Below the pieces are notes generated by a model. That model was not told the origin of the DNA and ran no database searches. It was given only the letters and a program-made list of their open reading frames with translations. This document shows positions 27,620 to 45,031 of a stretch of DNA of 64,000 nt, one piece after another. The position numbers and the translations under genes were made by a program. The stretch spans positions 64,001 to 128,000 of IMG/VR virus record IMGVR_UViG_3300021255_000109; one strand, written 5' to 3'. Source of the DNA: a virus. Lineage: Duplodnaviria > Caudoviricetes. Position 1 is the first letter of the stretch; the number at the start of each line of letters is the position of its first letter.

Positions 27620-27900
27620 AGTGTGCGGTCGGAGTCTGCGCGGGTCCCGTACGGTGACCGTACGGCGGGGTGCTAGAGTGCGGTAAGTGCTGCATATAGG
27701 CCGTTCGGTAACCGAACGGCCGCTAGAGTTAGCGATCGGGGTCGCATATGAGACCGGTTTCCGCTCGGGCGCCGAGCGGAGGTAGCAATTTCGGGCATAT
27801 GGGCGCGTTCGCGCGGGCCGCTAGAATTAGAAAAAAATTCGCATATGGATGTACCGAACGGGAGTTCGGGGCCGCACGCTCGCGCGCGGCCCGGGCTAAT
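27620..27900. repeat. GC-rich palindrome cluster at the middle/early boundary
   Basis: CGTACGGTGACCGTACG, CGTTCGGTAACCGAACG, repeated GCTAGA..GCATAT units. Confidence 0.6.
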
Positions 27901-28029
27901 TAGCTAAATAAAAGGCTAAAAAAACTAATAAAAAAGCTAAAAAAATAAAAAAAAATGGAAAAAATTAACCAAAACCGCACAAAAATAAATAAAAAAATAA
28001 TCAGGTGGTTTAAAACCACCTGATTATTA

Positions 28030-28263
28030 TTATTTTTTCTTTTTCTTGTTCTTTATATCGAATTTTTTTGCTTCATAATAGCAGAAATCAACGTCTCCAA
28101 AATCAAACTCTTCATAGCGCAAGTCGAATTCTTCAGGATAATTGAGTTTCTTCTTATCATGATAATCCTGATAAAATTGTTCAGCCTCATTCATATCTCT
28201 GGCGATAGCGACTACTTCTGTATCATTCCCAAATCCATCAGTCCAATCCATAATAGCAATCAT
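28030..28263 (-). CDS. hypothetical early protein
   Basis: Own TTGACA/TATAAT-like promoter, RBS, terminator hairpin 27997-28029. Confidence 0.75.
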   Translation of the reverse strand: MIAIMDWTDGFGNDTEVVAIARDMNEAEQFYQDYHDKKKLNYPEEFDLRYEEFDFGDVDFCYYEAKKFDIKNKKKKK

Positions 28264-28429
28264 TTTTTTTCTTCCTTTCTTTTTTGTATCTCTCTTATTG
28301 ACACTGTTATAATATCACATTTAAGAAATTTTGTCAAGCATTTTTTAAAAAATTTTTTAGTTAGTTTAAACTAACTTTTGCCCGGGCAAGTTAGGCGTAA
28401 CTAACTTGCGCACAAAAAGAAGAGGAGCT

Positions 28430-28609
28430 TTACTCCTCTTCCCACTCAAACTCGCACACAGGACAGCCGTTCTTCAGCTCGTCCGTTGACCAGTCACTCT
28501 CATAGATGGGCTCACCGCACTCCGGACACTCGAAAAACCGTTCGTCCCAATCGACAAATACACCGTACACTTGAACGCAAAAGTTAGCTACCTTTTCCCA
28601 CATACTCAT
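28430..28609 (-). CDS. small zinc-ribbon early protein
   Basis: 59 aa FECPECGEP..GCPVCE; below the track cutoff; own promoter. Confidence 0.7.
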   Translation of the reverse strand: MSMWEKVANFCVQVYGVFVDWDERFFECPECGEPIYESDWSTDELKNGCPVCEFEWEEE

Positions 28610-28908
28610 AGTTGAAATCTCCTTTTCTTTGATGATTTAATTATAACACAAGCCGGGTAATTTGTCAAGTATTTTTTTTATAAATATACCCACCCTTCTT
28701 CCTCGTTAATAATGATTTCTGATTCATACAGATTACGAGAGCAGCCCTCTTCATCTGCAAAGCAGGTATAATTCTGAACACCTTTTTTACATGCCCAATT
28801 GTATAAGTCTTCGATAGTCCAAATAATGTCTTTCGTTTTCATTTTTGTTCTTCCTTTCTCTTGATAATTTTATTATAGCACAGACTGAATAATTTGTCAA
28901 GCGTTTTT

Positions 28909-29127
28909 TTAATCAAGTTCATCAAATTTTAAACGCATGTCATTATCCCACCACTCAGCCAGTTCCTGGCCCTCCGGCGAATCGTAACCGAGAAGTTCGT
29001 TAGTTACAAACATTACAACGCCATAACACCGAGTCTTTGCTTGCTGGAGATTATATCCTCTTTTAGTCATTACGTTTTCCAGTTCGTAGTTAATCCACTT
29101 TTTTGTTCTTTCTGTTATATCTATCAT
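28909..29127 (-). CDS. hypothetical early protein
   Basis: Own promoter and RBS. Confidence 0.7.
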   Translation of the reverse strand: MIDITERTKKWINYELENVMTKRGYNLQQAKTRCYGVVMFVTNELLGYDSPEGQELAEWWDNDMRLKFDELD

Positions 29128-42007: not shown

Positions 42008-42415
42008 TTATAACTCAATCTTTCCGCCTTTAACCTCAAGCCAAATCGCCTTATATCCGGCCTTCTCCCATTGTTTACAATTAGCTTTCTTATCATCGAC
42101 CAAAATCCCGGCCTCTCTGATATAGTCCACTTTATTGCCATGTCCTACGATTGCAATTATATTTTCAATCGGGATTTCAGGCAACATTTCAGCAAGCCAA
42201 TCAATTCTTGCTTGTTTAGTTATTTCGTTGGCTACTATTGTGTTTATGTAAACCTGTGCGCCGTGCGCTATCAGATTTTTGACTATCTGGACATTTTCCG
42301 TAAACGGCTTCAAATTTCTAATGAAGTTATAGGTTAAGGACTCTGCCCGGTTATCTTTATTGTATACGCTGTGGAAATCTGCGAGAACGCCGTCAACATC
42401 AAAGTAGTAAGTCAT
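42008..42415 (-). CDS. HAD-superfamily 5'(3')-nucleotidase-like protein, second copy
   Basis: YFDVDGVLADF, ILVDD. Confidence 0.85.
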   Translation of the reverse strand: MTYYFDVDGVLADFHSVYNKDNRAESLTYNFIRNLKPFTENVQIVKNLIAHGAQVYINTIVANEITKQARIDWLAEMLPEIPIENIIAIVGHGNKVDYIREAGILVDDKKANCKQWEKAGYKAIWLEVKGGKIEL

Positions 42416-43001
42416 TTTTTTTATCTCCCTTCTCTCATCTGACAAGTATAGTATATCAAACGCCCGGGCATTTGTCAATAGTTTTTTGAAAGAAAATTAA
42501 ATTCGCACAATTTGGCAAAAATTTGCCAATTGTATACACAATTTGAAAAACGGCCGAGGTCAATTGTCTGACAATTGACCCCCTTTCTTTTAATTGCGTG
42601 TCGATTAGTAGAATTCTTCCTGCTCCTGTGCATAATAGAATCTTTCATCACACAGCGCCGGCATCCCGTTCCACAGCTTTTCTGGCTTCTCCTGATTGAT
42701 TCTGTTCGCATCTTGCTGGACTTTTGCCAGCGGCGCATTGCTTATATATGCCAGATAAGTTTCGCCAGTTTCAATTTCCTTATAGCACATCGTTCTAATC
42801 ATTTTAATTGTCTCCCTTCTCTGCAAATTCTTTCTTTGACCGTCCGGCCATTCTCAGCATTGTTTAATACAACATAAGCATGAGTATATTCAGCGCAAGC
42901 CCTATTAAATAGCTTTTCGGCTTCTTCTCTTGTTTCTACCTTGAAGCCATATCTCATGAAATTCACAGTAACATAGAACATTTTTTTGCCCACTCCTTTC
43001 T

Positions 43002-43265
43002 TTATAATGTGAAATCATCTATCGGCAGCTTCATAATTGTGATACCCTTATCTTCATCTATATAAGAGTATCCGAAGCTCTCTGCATCTCTCTCCTGCAC
43101 TTCACTCAGCACTTTTTCATAGTCAATATAATCATCGGTTTCATTATAGATTGCCTGCACCATGCGTGCCGCTTTTTCCGGAGTGCTTGCCAACCAGATA
43201 CCATCATCATCAAATCCATCATAGCGCACTACCCAAACCATCATCTTCGTATTAGCTTTCTTCAT
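43002..43265 (-). CDS. hypothetical early protein
   Basis: Own promoter and AGGAG RBS. Confidence 0.7.
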   Translation of the reverse strand: MKKANTKMMVWVVRYDGFDDDGIWLASTPEKAARMVQAIYNETDDYIDYEKVLSEVQERDAESFGYSYIDEDKGITIMKLPIDDFTL

Positions 43266-43904
43266 TGTTTTTTTCTCCTTTTCTCTGTTGTGCTTTTATT
43301 CTATCATATTTGCCCGGGCTTGTCAAGCCCTTTTTCAATTTTTTTTATAGGTGAGGGGATTTAATCAATCCCCTCGCAGGTAACCTCTACGCAAAGGAAG
43401 ATAAAGGTCAGCTTCCAAAGCATCCGGGTTGTGAGGTCATAAACGAGGATTGCGCTTTCTGCGACTTCCTTGATTTCCAGACCTAACATCATATCCAGAG
43501 CGTCAAGCGCTTCATTCTCAGACATACCGCAGAAGATATCTTCCCAATCAGTTCTTTCAATCATTTTCTTATCTCCTCTCTTGTATTGTGCCTTCATTAT
43601 AGCACCGATCTGTTGATTTGTCAAGTTTTTTTTAAAAATTTTTTTCGGTCGGGTTTCTTCAGCTCTCGCTGAAGAAAACCCTTTTGACTTCTGCGACTTC
43701 TTCCGGCTCTAACAGAGCCTTCAGAATGTCGTCGATAGATGCACCATATCTCAAAGCCTCATTTACACTAAAATCCATTTTCTTATCTCCTCTCTGTTGG
43801 GGCTTCTCTCTTACCCCTTACACCTGTATCTTATCACCTTTGCCCGGGCTTGTCAAGCCCTTTTTCAATTTTTTTAAAAATTTTTTTGGCCGTTTGGGCT
43901 TGCA

Positions 43905-44099
43905 TTAGCAAGCCCTTACGATTTTCTTGAGCGCCACAAGCTTGAGATTCCAGTCGCAAGCCGTGAACACAAGACCGTATTTTGCAGCGTCCTGTCTGAT
44001 TTCGTCGGCGCGTCTTGTGGTTTCGTCGTCGCCAAAATCAAAACCGTTACTGTTCAGTCTGTAGAACTCATTAGCATTTTCAGAAGTAAGAATCATCAT
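43905..44099 (-). CDS. hypothetical early protein (first gene of the array)
   Basis: Own promoter and GAGGA RBS. Confidence 0.65.
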   Translation of the reverse strand: MMILTSENANEFYRLNSNGFDFGDDETTRRADEIRQDAAKYGLVFTACDWNLKLVALKKIVRAC

Positions 44100-45031
44100 T
44101 TTTTTAATCTCCTCTCTTTTGAGCTTCTCTCTTGCTCTGTGCCTTTATCTTATCACACTTGCCCGGGCTTGTCAAGCACTTTTTCAAATTTTTTTAAAAA
44201 ATTTTTTTGCCCTGTTTTTGGGCTTGCCTGATTGCCTTGCATCATCATAATAACACAAGCCTTTTTTGCTGTCAACAAAAATTTGCTTTTTTGCCTGTCA
44301 AAATATTGTACGGTTTTTGCATGTTTTTTGTGCATTTTTACTAACCTGTTTTTTCACGAAAACGTTTTTGCTCATTTGAGCTTTACGAAAACGTTTTCGT
44401 TGATTTATCACAGCGAAAACGTTTTCGTTGACCATGTTTTTACGAAAACGTTTTCGCTACAACAGCGAATTGATGAAAGTTGCTTGTTAAAATTTTAACA
44501 ATCTTTGCCCTGGAATCCGTCTAAACTTTTAAACGTTTAAGTTTGTAAACAATCGCTTGTTAAATTTTTAACAATCTCGGACAGAGGGTGAACGTATGTT
44601 CGGGCAGAATACCAGTTCGGTTAGTTAGTCTTAACTAACTGCCCGCACATTTGTTCGGTGAATGTATGTTCGGTTAGTTAGTCTGAACTAACCGCACACA
44701 TGTTCGCCCAAACGTTAGTTCGGTTAGTTAGTCTAACCTAAGTTAGTTAGTCGTAACTAACTCACCGCTCCAATCGTCCGATTTATAGTTAGTTTAGATT
44801 AACTGAGTTAGTTAGTCGTAACTAACTCGCCCGTGCAAGAATTATTTTTAAATAATTGCACAATTTGATGAATTGTCTGACAATTTCCTAATTTTTTACC
44901 AATTGTGTACACAATTCGAGCAACGGCCGAGGCCGGTTGTCAGACAATTTAATCAATTGTGTTGCAATTGATTTACTGGATGAACTGGCGCTTTACTAAA
45001 AAAATTTTTTCATTTTTTTTGAAAAAAAGTA

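What the first reader, a model, noticed from the sequence alone, without database searches (positions are those of the whole stretch)
27889..44170. Cassette-like early array punctuated by GCCCGGGC plus 16-bp palindromes
GCCCGGGC occurs at 27889, 28380, 29224, 30038, 30991, 31504, 34019, 34648, 35609, 36408, 37351, 38320, 38970 and 39665, between a gene end and the next promoter, usually abutting GTTAG-N6-CTAAC, TGACAATT or CGAAC..GTTCG. It also sits inside promoter spacers at 42462, 43312, 43842 and 44161. I did not notice it outside this region. CTAAC-N-GCCCGGGC-N-GTTAG(GC) superficially echoes integron attC cores. Inference: recombination sites for shuffling promoter-gene cassettes, or protein-binding or modification sites marking first-injected DNA.
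Basis: partly seen in the sequence, partly recalled or inferred. Interest (0 to 1): 0.72.

Follow-up and report, generated by a model that had tools for sequence, protein, structure and literature searches.

The report
Junction motif between phage early genes
An invariant 8-base palindrome, GCCCGGGC, sits at the boundaries between small promoter-plus-gene units (and inside a few promoters) in the early region of a group of large rumen/gut phages; related phages have deleted, swapped and reordered units exactly at it, so it acts as a natural connector for gene shuffling, much like the PeSL cassettes of T4-type phages.

Summary
GCCCGGGC occurs 18 times in the 180.8-kb phage genome, all within window 27889-44168 (about 0.17 expected). 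Fourteen sites lie between a gene end and the next consensus sigma-70-type promoter, usually between two 16-bp operator-like palindromes. Four lie in promoter spacers.

The layout is clade-wide. About 42 related viral contigs carry it, and complete relatives hold 20-30 sites in a single 14-20 kb block.

Between related phages, 85-98% identical segments end exactly at the 8-mer. In a close relative (L086), a novel joint lies precisely at the 8-mer, joining the left flank of window site 39665 to the right flank of site 38320.

It is not an integron: there is no tyrosine or serine recombinase, no attC-like structure, and each unit has its own promoter.

Conservation of the inner CCCGGG, a symmetric Y/R flank preference without covariation, and a conserved promoter-spacer position also suggest recognition by an unidentified symmetric protein.

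The closest known parallel is the PeSL composite terminator/promoter cassettes of T4-type phages. I class this as a new variant of a known kind. The scan noted this same stretch before in overlapping windows of the same genome, not on other DNA.

The parts
27889..44168 (-). Early-gene array: about 40 short minus-strand genes, about 45 consensus sigma-70-type promoters and 18 GCCCGGGC cores. Most genes are orphans; recurrent families are wHTH-like (x4), a 120-aa protein (x2), a DEDD-exonuclease-like protein (x2) and NT5C 5'-deoxynucleotidase (x2).
44161..44168 (.). Core in the 17-bp spacer of promoter TTGACA(44175)...TAAGAT(44147); drives gene 44099-43905
43842..43849 (.). Core in the spacer of promoter 43856-43828; drives gene 43778-43659. 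The orthologous site in near relative L092 has drifted to GCCCGGGT.
43312..43319 (.). Core in the spacer of promoter 43326-43298; drives genes 43265-42605
42462..42469 (.). Core in the spacer of promoter 42478-42450 (TTGACAAAT-core-...TATACT); drives NT5C gene 42415-42008, followed by the KGKGSY peptide gene 41920-41765. This unit is syntenic with one in relative G005.
39665..39672 (.). Boundary core after the hairpin of the E/71-aa unit and before a TTTGCACAAAA...TTTTGTGCA element and the TTGCAT promoter. Its left flank is joined to the right flank of site 38320 in relative L086.
38951..38995 (.). Boundary module: GTTAG-N6-CTAAC / core 38970-38977 / GTTAG-N6-CTAAC, then promoter 38890
38300..38345 (.). 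Boundary module: GTTAG palindrome / core 38320-38327 / AATTGTC-type box, then promoters 38266 and 38168 and DEDD-like gene 38107-37403. Its right flank forms the novel joint seen in L086.
37330..37377 (.). Boundary module: GTTAG palindrome / core 37351-37358 / AATTGTCAGATAATT, then promoter 37297
36390..36446 (.). Boundary module: GCGCTTTAGCGC...GCGCTAAAGCGC palindrome / core 36408-36415 / AATTGTCTGACAA box, then promoter 36355
35590..35633 (.). Boundary module: GTTAG palindrome / core 35609-35616 / AATTGTATGATAATT, then promoter 35557
34630..34674 (.). Boundary module: GTTAG palindrome / core 34648-34655 / GTTAG palindrome, then promoter 34597
34000..34026 (.). Boundary module: hairpin / core 34019-34026 / CGAAC-N4-GTTCG (LexA-box-like), then promoter 33987
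31487..31530 (.). Boundary module: CGAAC-N4-GTTCG / core 31504-31511 / AATTGTCAGACAATT, then promoter 31461
30975..31016 (.). Boundary module: CGAAC-N4-GTTCG / core 30991-30998 / GATTAG..CTAAC, then promoters 30939 and 30843 and DEDD-like gene 30781-30077
30020..30062 (.). Boundary module: AATTGTCAGAAAAT box / core 30038-30045 / GTTAG palindrome, then three tandem promoters (29984, 29861, 29732)
29205..29251 (.). Boundary module: CGAAC-N4-GTTCG / core 29224-29231 / hybrid GTTCG..CTAAC, then promoter 29183
28360..28405 (.). Boundary module: GTTAG palindrome / core 28380-28387 / GTTAG palindrome, then promoter 28337
27855..27896 (.). Terminal core 27889-27896 at the distal end of the array, followed by CGAAC-N4-GTTCG and GC-rich CATATGC/CTAGC repeats; no promoter follows
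44340..46620 (.). Adjacent, nearly gene-free zone holding tandem arrays of the same palindrome classes: 24 exact GTTAG-N6-CTAAC matches (about 26 copies counting near-matches), about 15 AATTGTCAGACAATT, and 4 ACGAAAACGTTTTCGT. One plus-strand gene lies inside it at 45094-45393. This is context, not part of the 8-mer system proper.

Best explanation
GCCCGGGC is the invariant core of a composite boundary module. On the transcribed strand the module reads: gene end or hairpin, optional operator-like palindrome, core, optional palindrome, A/T tract, strong sigma-70-type promoter. These modules delimit self-contained early transcription units in a hyperplastic early (host-takeover-like) region.

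Shown here: the core is the point at which units are joined, deleted, duplicated, reordered and occasionally inverted during the evolution of this phage clade.

Inferred: novel joints arise because every boundary carries the same GC-rich 8-10 bp dyad next to similar promoter modules. Short-homology recombination or template switching by the phage's general machinery (it encodes a Sak4-type annealing ATPase) then resolves preferentially there, and the products stay functional because each unit keeps its own promoter and end. This is how the PeSL cassettes of T4-type phages work.

Also inferred: the core is additionally a recognition site for an unidentified dyad-symmetric protein, such as an early shut-off operator or roadblock. 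That would explain why the exact sequence is held constant and why it also sits in the spacer of the most upstream early promoters.
For: Statistics and confinement: all 18 of 18 sites lie in one 16-kb block. The same holds in complete relatives, with 20-30 sites in one block and 0 control hits.

Anatomy. In G005 the module has no palindromes, so the 8-mer is the universal part.

Junctions: 34 of 289 internal segment ends lie within 15 nt of a core, against 6 at random and a maximum of 16 in 1000 trials. The offsets peak at 0 to +3 nt from the outer edge: 42 ends at -1..+7, against 17 in the rest of the +-40 nt range. GCCCGGGC is the top 8-mer at 274 abrupt junctions (31). That makes 8.6% of sites junctions, against 1.5% of -35-like hexamers and under 0.1% of -10-like hexamers.

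Clean examples: L013 and L040 share an 843-bp two-gene unit, 94% identical from core to core and unrelated outside. L086 against this window shows a joint exactly at the core, between the left flank of site 39665 and the right flank of site 38320.

Other signs of shuffling: unit order differs among four full arrays, with opposite orientations in G002 and tandem empty units in G001. Paralogous units occur within this genome, and promoter-module similarity ends at the core. The cargo is mostly orphan genes.

General recombination function: Sak4-type AAA_24 hit, E = 2e-41.

Protein-recognition part: the inner CCCGGG is retained 97-99% against a background of about 88%. There is a symmetric Y(-1)/R(+1) preference with no covariation beyond position 1. 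The spacer-type promoter, NT5C gene and KGKGSY peptide unit is conserved between this genome and G005.

Precedent: PMC2839356 and PMC4122927.
Against: Only about 11% of abrupt junctions are at the core. Under a strict filter, 54 of 61 shared segments have neither end at a core. RBS and -35 motifs are also junction points.

Eight base pairs is very short for homologous recombination, and no enzyme acting on the site was identified.

Because the core is identical at every boundary, a joint anywhere within about 3 nt of it would be mapped onto it.

Selection for intact units could by itself concentrate surviving joints in the roughly 12-16 nt between the two flanking elements.

No binder was found. 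The distance to the -35 is variable and not helically phased. Classic T-tract terminators are not enriched.
Confidence: 0.55

Rival explanations
1. The 8-mer is mainly an operator or roadblock site for an early regulator, comparable to mycobacteriophage stoperators: one protein binds in the spacer of the first promoters and at many sites between transcription units, shutting off or insulating early transcription. On this view its coincidence with junctions is a by-product of sitting at unit boundaries.
For: Two contexts match the stoperator logic described in PMC9283540: sites inside promoters at the upstream end of the array (W 4, G005 4, one more in L092) and sites between units. There is dyad symmetry with independent half-site flank preference. 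The core hexamer is conserved. Many gene-end hairpins lack T-tracts, so an added roadblock would make sense. The sites are confined to one co-regulated block.
Against: No candidate binder was found. The wHTH paralogs would be expected to bind 16-20 bp palindromes, and proteins B and E gave no informative hits. The exact nucleotide-level joints, the tandem empty units and the reordered units need recombination at the site anyway. An orthologous spacer site has drifted to GCCCGGGT in a 98.7%-identical relative.
Confidence: 0.22
2. A dedicated site-specific system exists: an unrecognised nuclease or recombinase, neither tyrosine nor serine type, cuts or exchanges strands at the 8-bp dyad and mobilises promoter-containing cassettes. 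This would be a phage counterpart of an integron platform.
For: The 8-bp GC palindrome with a symmetric flank preference is the kind of site recognised by homodimeric type II enzymes (established knowledge: it equals the SrfI site). Joints are nucleotide-exact, orientation switches occur at cores, and 38-bp empty units occur. A large NAD-dependent ligase is encoded. A weak Atlas lead links recurrent protein E to a type II endonuclease family (score 0.90).
Against: There is no PF00589 or PF00239 hit. Protein E has a confident model but no structural or profile match to nucleases. Most junctions are not at cores. PeSLs achieve the same result without a dedicated enzyme (PMC2839356).
Confidence: 0.1
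3. The site is a modification, restriction, nick or injection mark on first-entering DNA: a target for methylation, a site-specific nick as in phage T5, or a binding site that pauses DNA entry.
For: The array resembles pre-early or host-takeover regions, with an NT5C deoxynucleotidase like T5 Dmp and strong host-type promoters. It lies next to a repeat-rich non-coding zone. In two linear records the array lies at contig ends.
Against: No N4/N6 (PF01555) or C5 (PF00145) methyltransferase is encoded. The precise placement between unit ends and promoters, and inside promoter spacers, is not predicted by this idea. Physical genome ends are unknown, and in this record the array is mid-contig.
Confidence: 0.06
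4. The functional form is a DNA or RNA structure: a hairpin or cruciform, or an A-form GC clamp, acting as a terminator or topological barrier.
For: Where both flanks are GTTAG boxes, the whole roughly 48 bp is a near-palindrome. In G002 many sites read TGC-core-GCA.
Against: Complementarity at +-2 to +-10 is at chance level, and 214 of 381 sites have no extension at all. The 8-mer alone cannot form a hairpin with a loop of at least 3 nt (inference from the sequence). The 1-3 nt linkers are the least conserved positions.
Confidence: 0.04

Closest known systems
PeSLs (promoter-early stem-loops) of T4-type phages (Arbiol et al. 2010, PMC2839356; Comeau et al. 2014, PMC4122927)
   Same: Both are composite intergenic motifs made of a stem-loop, an AT-rich tract and a strong sigma-70 early promoter. 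Both are concentrated in hyperplastic regions full of orphan genes. Insertions, deletions and replacements between related phages are bounded by the motifs. Neither has a dedicated recombinase.
   Different: The phage lineage is different: a PolIII-alpha-type polymerase, TAG-recoded late genes, and probably a Clostridia host. Here the shared element reduces to an invariant 8-10 bp dyad (YGCCCGGGCR) separate from the hairpin, often sandwiched between interchangeable 16-bp operator-like palindromes, and also found inside promoter spacers. Mini-circles were not tested.
Integron gene cassettes with attC sites
   Same: Both are arrays of small, same-orientation cassettes separated by a recurring palindromic element. 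The CTAAC...GTTAG flanks resemble the RYYYAAC/GTTRRRY cores.
   Different: There is no IntI or any tyrosine recombinase. There is no 57-141 bp imperfect attC hairpin. Each unit has its own promoter, unlike integron cassettes, which are expressed from a common Pc. The GTTAG boxes are optional and are absent in G005.
Stoperators of Cluster A mycobacteriophages (PMC9283540)
   Same: Both have dozens of copies of one short site in intergenic positions plus copies within an early promoter, consistent with a single protein that both represses initiation and blocks elongation.
   Different: Stoperators are asymmetric, orientation-dependent, spread over the whole genome and bound by a known immunity repressor of temperate phages. 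Here the site is a palindrome confined to one block of an apparently lytic phage, and no binder is known.
Early takeover regions of T5 (pre-early/first-step-transfer DNA) and SPO1 (host-takeover module). This comparison rests on my own knowledge and was not checked in papers here.
   Same: Both are clusters of short genes, each behind very strong host-type promoters. Both include a 5'-deoxynucleotidase, and both lie next to a repeat-rich non-coding stretch.
   Different: To my knowledge no invariant junction motif has been described there. Whether this array lies at a physical genome end is unknown.

Membership tests
PeSL-type composite regulatory cassette | Intergenic motif combining a stem-loop or terminator, an AT-rich tract and a consensus sigma-70 early promoter | tested here: met
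   Twenty-three perfect 12/12 promoters. GC hairpins lie upstream of 8 of 13 tandem sites in this window and 12 of 20 in G005. T-tract terminators are not enriched (23 found, 16.6 expected).
PeSL-type composite regulatory cassette | Concentrated in a hyperplastic region rich in orphan genes | tested here: met
   most array genes have homologues in 0-2 of 42 related contigs; sites are confined to one block.
PeSL-type composite regulatory cassette | Indel, replacement and rearrangement breakpoints between related phages coincide with the motifs | tested here: met
   statistics; L013/L040 unit; L086 against this window; unit order.
PeSL-type composite regulatory cassette | Circular excision products (mini-circles) from motif-to-motif exchange | not testable with these tools
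   Needs reads or inverse PCR on infected cells.
PeSL-type composite regulatory cassette | Occurs in T4-type myoviruses, with sequence similarity to described PeSL consensus motifs | tested here: not met
   The replication genes are PolIII-alpha/SPbeta-like, and the nearest cultured relatives are Enterococcus phages and Phass-1. So this works like a PeSL but is not a member by descent.
Integron (attC/IntI) | IntI-type tyrosine recombinase encoded with the array | tested here: not met
   a six-frame search with stop read-through gives no PF00589 hit in 180.8 kb, while the control rings in 14 of 14 genomes.
Integron (attC/IntI) | attC: a 57-141 bp imperfect inverted repeat that folds as a single strand | tested here: not met
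   no complementarity beyond the 8-mer above chance; the flanking palindromes are optional.
Integron (attC/IntI) | Mostly promoterless cassettes expressed from a common Pc | tested here: not met
   every unit has its own consensus promoter or promoters.
Stoperator-type repressor sites | One short site repeated between genes and also present in an early promoter | tested here: met
Stoperator-type repressor sites | Identified cognate repressor that binds the site | tested here: inconclusive
   No candidate emerged from Pfam, PHROG, PDB or fold searches of the recurrent array proteins. Binding itself is not testable here.
Stoperator-type repressor sites | Asymmetric, orientation-dependent sites spread genome-wide | tested here: not met
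   The site is a palindrome confined to a 16-kb block.
Phage-encoded modification of the site | DNA methyltransferase gene in the genome | tested here: not met
   no PF01555 or PF00145 hit. Other methyltransferase families and host enzymes were not tested.

The most novel reading that the evidence does not exclude
GCCCGGGC is the target of a dedicated, so far unrecognised dyad-specific nuclease or recombinase, neither tyrosine nor serine type and possibly one of the recurrent unknown array proteins. This enzyme would actively excise, invert and insert promoter-bearing gene cassettes, giving a clade of lytic phages an integron-like but mechanistically new cassette platform for host-takeover genes.
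Probability: 0.1. Interest if true: 0.9.

Novelty: new variant of a known kind. Interest (0 to 1): 0.62.

Why it matters
How phages assemble and exchange their fast-evolving early (host-takeover, anti-defence) genes is largely unknown outside the T4 group. Here a single 8-10 bp dyad marks every unit boundary in at least about 40 large uncultured phages, and exact joints at it can be read directly from metagenomes.

This gives three things. First, a simple sequence rule for delimiting early-gene cassettes and their regulatory flanks in uncultured phages. Second, a second, independent case for the idea that conserved regulatory cassettes drive modular shuffling, now in phages that probably infect Firmicutes. 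Third, a defined DNA bait (YGCCCGGGCR) for finding the protein that holds the sequence constant.

The interchangeable LexA-, CodY- and DtxR-like boxes fused to the core suggest that host-state inputs are shuffled together with the genes.

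Tried and rejected
(1) Integron reading: rejected, for the three reasons given in the membership test.

(2) Phage-encoded methylation: no PF01555 or PF00145 hit.

(3) RecA-, RecT- or ERF-type recombinase: none found. Only a Sak4-type AAA_24 was found.

(4) Helical phasing of the core relative to the -35, as for a class I activator: not supported. The periodicity statistic R at 10.5 bp is only 0.13, with stronger signals at 8 and 11.5-12 bp that reflect related module types.

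(5) Hairpin or cruciform: no covariation.

(6) Protein E (40579-40118) as a PD-(D/E)XK or restriction-like nuclease: the Atlas lead was 0.90 and the AF2 model is confident (pLDDT 94). Foldseek on PDB gave nothing at E <= 0.001, the wide structural search gave a best Z of 2.9, and the Pfam and PDB profile searches were empty. This remains inconclusive and was not used.

(7) Cultured relatives: Enterococcus phage H1 and Phass-1 share array genes but have no GCCCGGGC array.

(8) Megablast of the array against GenBank phages: no match.

(9) Rfam on 24-50 kb: no family.

(10) Literature search for GCCCGGGC plus phage: nothing relevant.

(11) My first regex for spacer-type sites in relatives was too strict. 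Corrected searches found them in G005 and L092.

(12) One search was a mistyped reference and one search used too many words. Neither gave a result.

Full report
OBSERVATION.

GCCCGGGC occurs 18 times in the window, at exactly the coordinates given. Dinucleotide-preserving shuffles give a mean of 0.17 and never more than 1. The window is bases 64001-128000 of a 180,778-bp viral record, and the whole genome holds no further copy. Only one other CCCGGG exists in the genome. The genes of the region lie on the minus strand.

ANATOMY.

On the transcribed strand, 13 sites follow the same layout: gene end or GC-rich hairpin, a 16-bp palindrome, 1-4 nt, GCCCGGGC, 1-4 nt, a second 16-bp palindrome, phased A/T tracts, then TTGACA-17-(TG)nTATAAT, an RBS and a short gene.

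The palindromes fall into four classes that combine freely on the two sides of the core:
- GTTAG-N6-CTAAC.
- CGAAC-N4-GTTCG, which from established knowledge is the Gram-positive LexA box. Six copies occur in the genome, all in the array region: five next to a core and one inside a gene.
- AATTGTCAGACAATT, which is CodY-box-like.
- A GCGCTTTAGCGC inverted repeat.

Four sites (42462, 43312, 43842, 44161) lie inside 17-bp promoter spacers directly after the -35. Site 27889 ends the array. The array holds 78 promoter-like matches against 29.7 +- 5.5 in shuffles, including 23 perfect 12/12 promoters. The core occurs only at boundaries between units, not before every promoter. T-tract terminators are not enriched.

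The cargo is about 40 short genes, mostly orphans. Four families are duplicated: a weak winged-helix family (x4), a 120-aa protein (x2), a DEDD-exonuclease-like protein (x2) and an NT5C 5'-deoxynucleotidase (x2).

The phage encodes a PolIII-alpha-type polymerase, an NAD ligase, topoisomerase II and 24 tRNAs. Its late genes read TAG as sense.

THE FEATURE IS CLADE-WIDE.

The composite pattern (core plus GTTAG palindrome) is found in 66 stretches from 42 IMG/VR contigs, many of 120-186 kb. Those stretches hold 361 cores in 524 kb. Of 346 unique sites, 285 have at least one perfect flanking palindrome, against 92 of 346 control positions, and the palindromes belong to many classes.

In five nearly complete relatives the cores number 8-30. 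In the three whose positions were listed (G001, G002, G005) they lie in one 14-20 kb block, and the reversed control pattern gives 0 hits.

The full arrays show that the palindromes are optional. In G005 the module is simply hairpin, core, A/T tract, promoter. In G001 two promoter types alternate after the core. G002 has units in both orientations.

Nearly every core lies just upstream of a promoter or inside one. Distant cultured relatives (Enterococcus phages H1/EF1/VRE9 and Phass-1, 38-40% protein identity) share array genes but not the motif. Array-bearing contigs binned into MAGs are mostly Clostridia (Acutalibacteraceae, Oscillospiraceae), which is only a weak host hint.

No relative is closer than about 70% to this genome among the IMG/VR loci, so I compared the relatives with each other. 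The results were as follows.
- Internal ends of segments at least 85% identical lie within 15 nt of a core 34 times out of 289. Random placement gives 6.0, with a maximum of 16 in 1000 trials.
- The offsets peak at 0 to +3 nt beyond the outer edge of the 8-mer. There are 42 ends at -1..+7, against 17 in the rest of +-40 nt.
- With no motif assumed, GCCCGGGC is the commonest 8-mer at 274 abrupt junction edges (31). That makes 8.6% of cores junctions, against 1.5% of -35-like and under 0.1% of -10-like hexamers. RBS-like motifs form the next class.
- L013 and L040 share an 843-bp two-gene unit that is 94% identical from core to core and unrelated outside. In L013 the neighbour on one side is a divergent promoter.

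The test could then be made on this window itself. ENA fragments L086 and L087 are 81-84% identical to it but are ordered E, 71 aa | C | A' | D', where the window has E, 71 aa | A | D | C. The sequence left of L086's core matches the left flank of window site 39665. The sequence to the right matches the right flank of site 38320. So the novel joint is at the core, and the 1.35-kb A|D block between two direct cores is missing from that position.

Further support:
- The order of recurrent families differs among four full arrays.
- Within this genome, promoter-module similarity stops at the outer edge of the core when the upstream palindromes differ.
- G001 has three cores 38 bp apart enclosing only a palindrome.

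LIMITS.

The core is a hotspot, not the only junction. About 89% of abrupt junctions lie elsewhere. Under a strict filter, 54 of 61 shared segments have neither end at a core. In L092 (98.7% identical to the window) a replacement breakpoint lies in the A-tract of a promoter, and the orthologous spacer core has drifted to GCCCGGGT.

A joint within about 3 nt of the core would be mapped onto it. Selection for intact units could by itself confine surviving joints to the short space between the flanking elements.

WHAT ACTS ON IT.

Six-frame searches with stop read-through find no tyrosine or serine recombinase, no PF01555 or PF00145 methyltransferase, and no RecA, RecT or ERF. A Sak4-type AAA_24 ATPase is present.

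The recurrent 153-aa protein E has a confident predicted fold but no match to nucleases or to anything else.

SIGNS OF SEQUENCE-SPECIFIC RECOGNITION.

- In 199 site pairs inside homologous segments, the inner CCCGGG is retained 97-99% against a background of about 88%. The outer G/C positions are retained 82%, and the adjacent linkers only 71-76%.
- Across 381 unique sites, position -1 is rarely A (9) and +1 rarely T (15). This is a symmetric Y/R preference without covariation, and positions +-2 to +-10 are complementary only at chance level. That fits a symmetric dimer reading duplex DNA, not a hairpin.
- Spacer-type promoters recur in G005 and L092. The unit of spacer promoter, NT5C gene and KGKGSY peptide is syntenic between this genome and G005.
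- The distance from the core to the -35 is not phased at 10.5 bp.

INTERPRETATION.

The best-supported reading is a PeSL-like boundary module (PMC2839356, PMC4122927). Self-contained early units are separated by a conserved composite motif, and the identical GC-rich dyad is where novel joints form.

That units are joined there is shown. The mechanism is inferred: short-homology recombination or template switching by general phage functions, with selection keeping units intact.

A second, compatible inference is that the dyad is an operator or roadblock for an unidentified early protein, analogous in logic to stoperators (PMC9283540). That would explain why the sequence is held constant and why it appears in promoter spacers.

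The integron analogy fails all three defining features tested.

Compared with PeSLs, four things are new: the lineage, the reduction of the shared element to an invariant 8-10 bp dyad, its fusion to interchangeable operator-like palindromes, and its use inside promoters.

EARLIER NOTES.

First-stage notes on overlapping windows of this same genome had already described the core flanked by LexA-, CodY- and DtxR-like boxes (e1-5822136, e1-5822163) and the neighbouring operator zone (e1-5822161). I used them as leads only. The junction analysis, the clade survey and the membership tests are independent of them.

Noticed in passing
window 44340-46620: A nearly gene-free zone next to the array, packed with tandem arrays of the same palindrome classes that flank the core: 24 exact GTTAG-N6-CTAAC matches (about 26 copies counting near-matches), about 15 AATTGTCAGACAATT, 4 ACGAAAACGTTTTCGT and 2 TTGTTAAAA(T)TTTAACAA. 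A 99-aa plus-strand gene (45094-45393) with its own consensus promoter is embedded in it. I confirmed the arrays but not the identity of the binders. L092 carries a different arrangement of the same boxes.
   Followed up: partly
window 40785-41131: A second tandem array of GAATTGTCAGACAATTC-type boxes inside the gene array. The 140-aa ORF 41221-40799 that overlaps it looks like a translation of the repeats and not a real gene.
   Followed up: no
window 27600-27890; L082 18800-19100: GC-rich repeats, each a short hairpin plus CATATGC and CTAGC motifs, lie just beyond the last core at the distal end of the array in this genome and in relative G005. The function is unknown; candidates are a small-RNA cluster, an origin, or a packaging or terminus signal.
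   Followed up: no
window 29620-29990, 30810-30950, 32070-32360: Runs of two or three tandem consensus promoters about 100-130 nt apart with no convincing ORF between them. They may drive short non-coding RNAs. Rfam finds nothing.
   Followed up: partly
whole genome (G000), e.g. 120-160 kb: Late genes read TAG as a sense codon: coverage by ORFs of at least 150 aa rises from 0.25-0.30 to about 0.95 with TAG open. The Sak4-like gene at G000 28562-29164 has 3 in-frame TAGs. Relative Phass-1 is filed under the 'code 15 clade'.
   Followed up: partly
window 40118-40579 (-): The 153-aa protein E recurs in 18 of 42 related contigs and has 66 database homologues. AlphaFold gives a confident model (pLDDT 94), but no structural match above Z 2.9 and no sequence or profile match in Pfam or PDB. 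It may be a new fold. Invariant residues include E103, E108, D126, Q135, K137 and E146.
   Followed up: yes
   Followed up: partly
L083 6799-6883: Three GCCCGGGC cores 38 bp apart, each followed only by a CTTTAGCG..TTAAAG palindrome. These are 'empty' units, suggesting unequal exchange or slippage between cores.
   Followed up: no
L081 (G002 155-175 kb), L083: Another recurrent flank element: a TTTGCACAAAA ... TTTTGTGCAA inverted pair about 25-30 nt apart, bracketing a weaker TAGACA/TTGCAT-type promoter. It alternates with the GTTAG-plus-TTGACA promoter type along the array. In this window it occurs only at site 39665.
   Followed up: no
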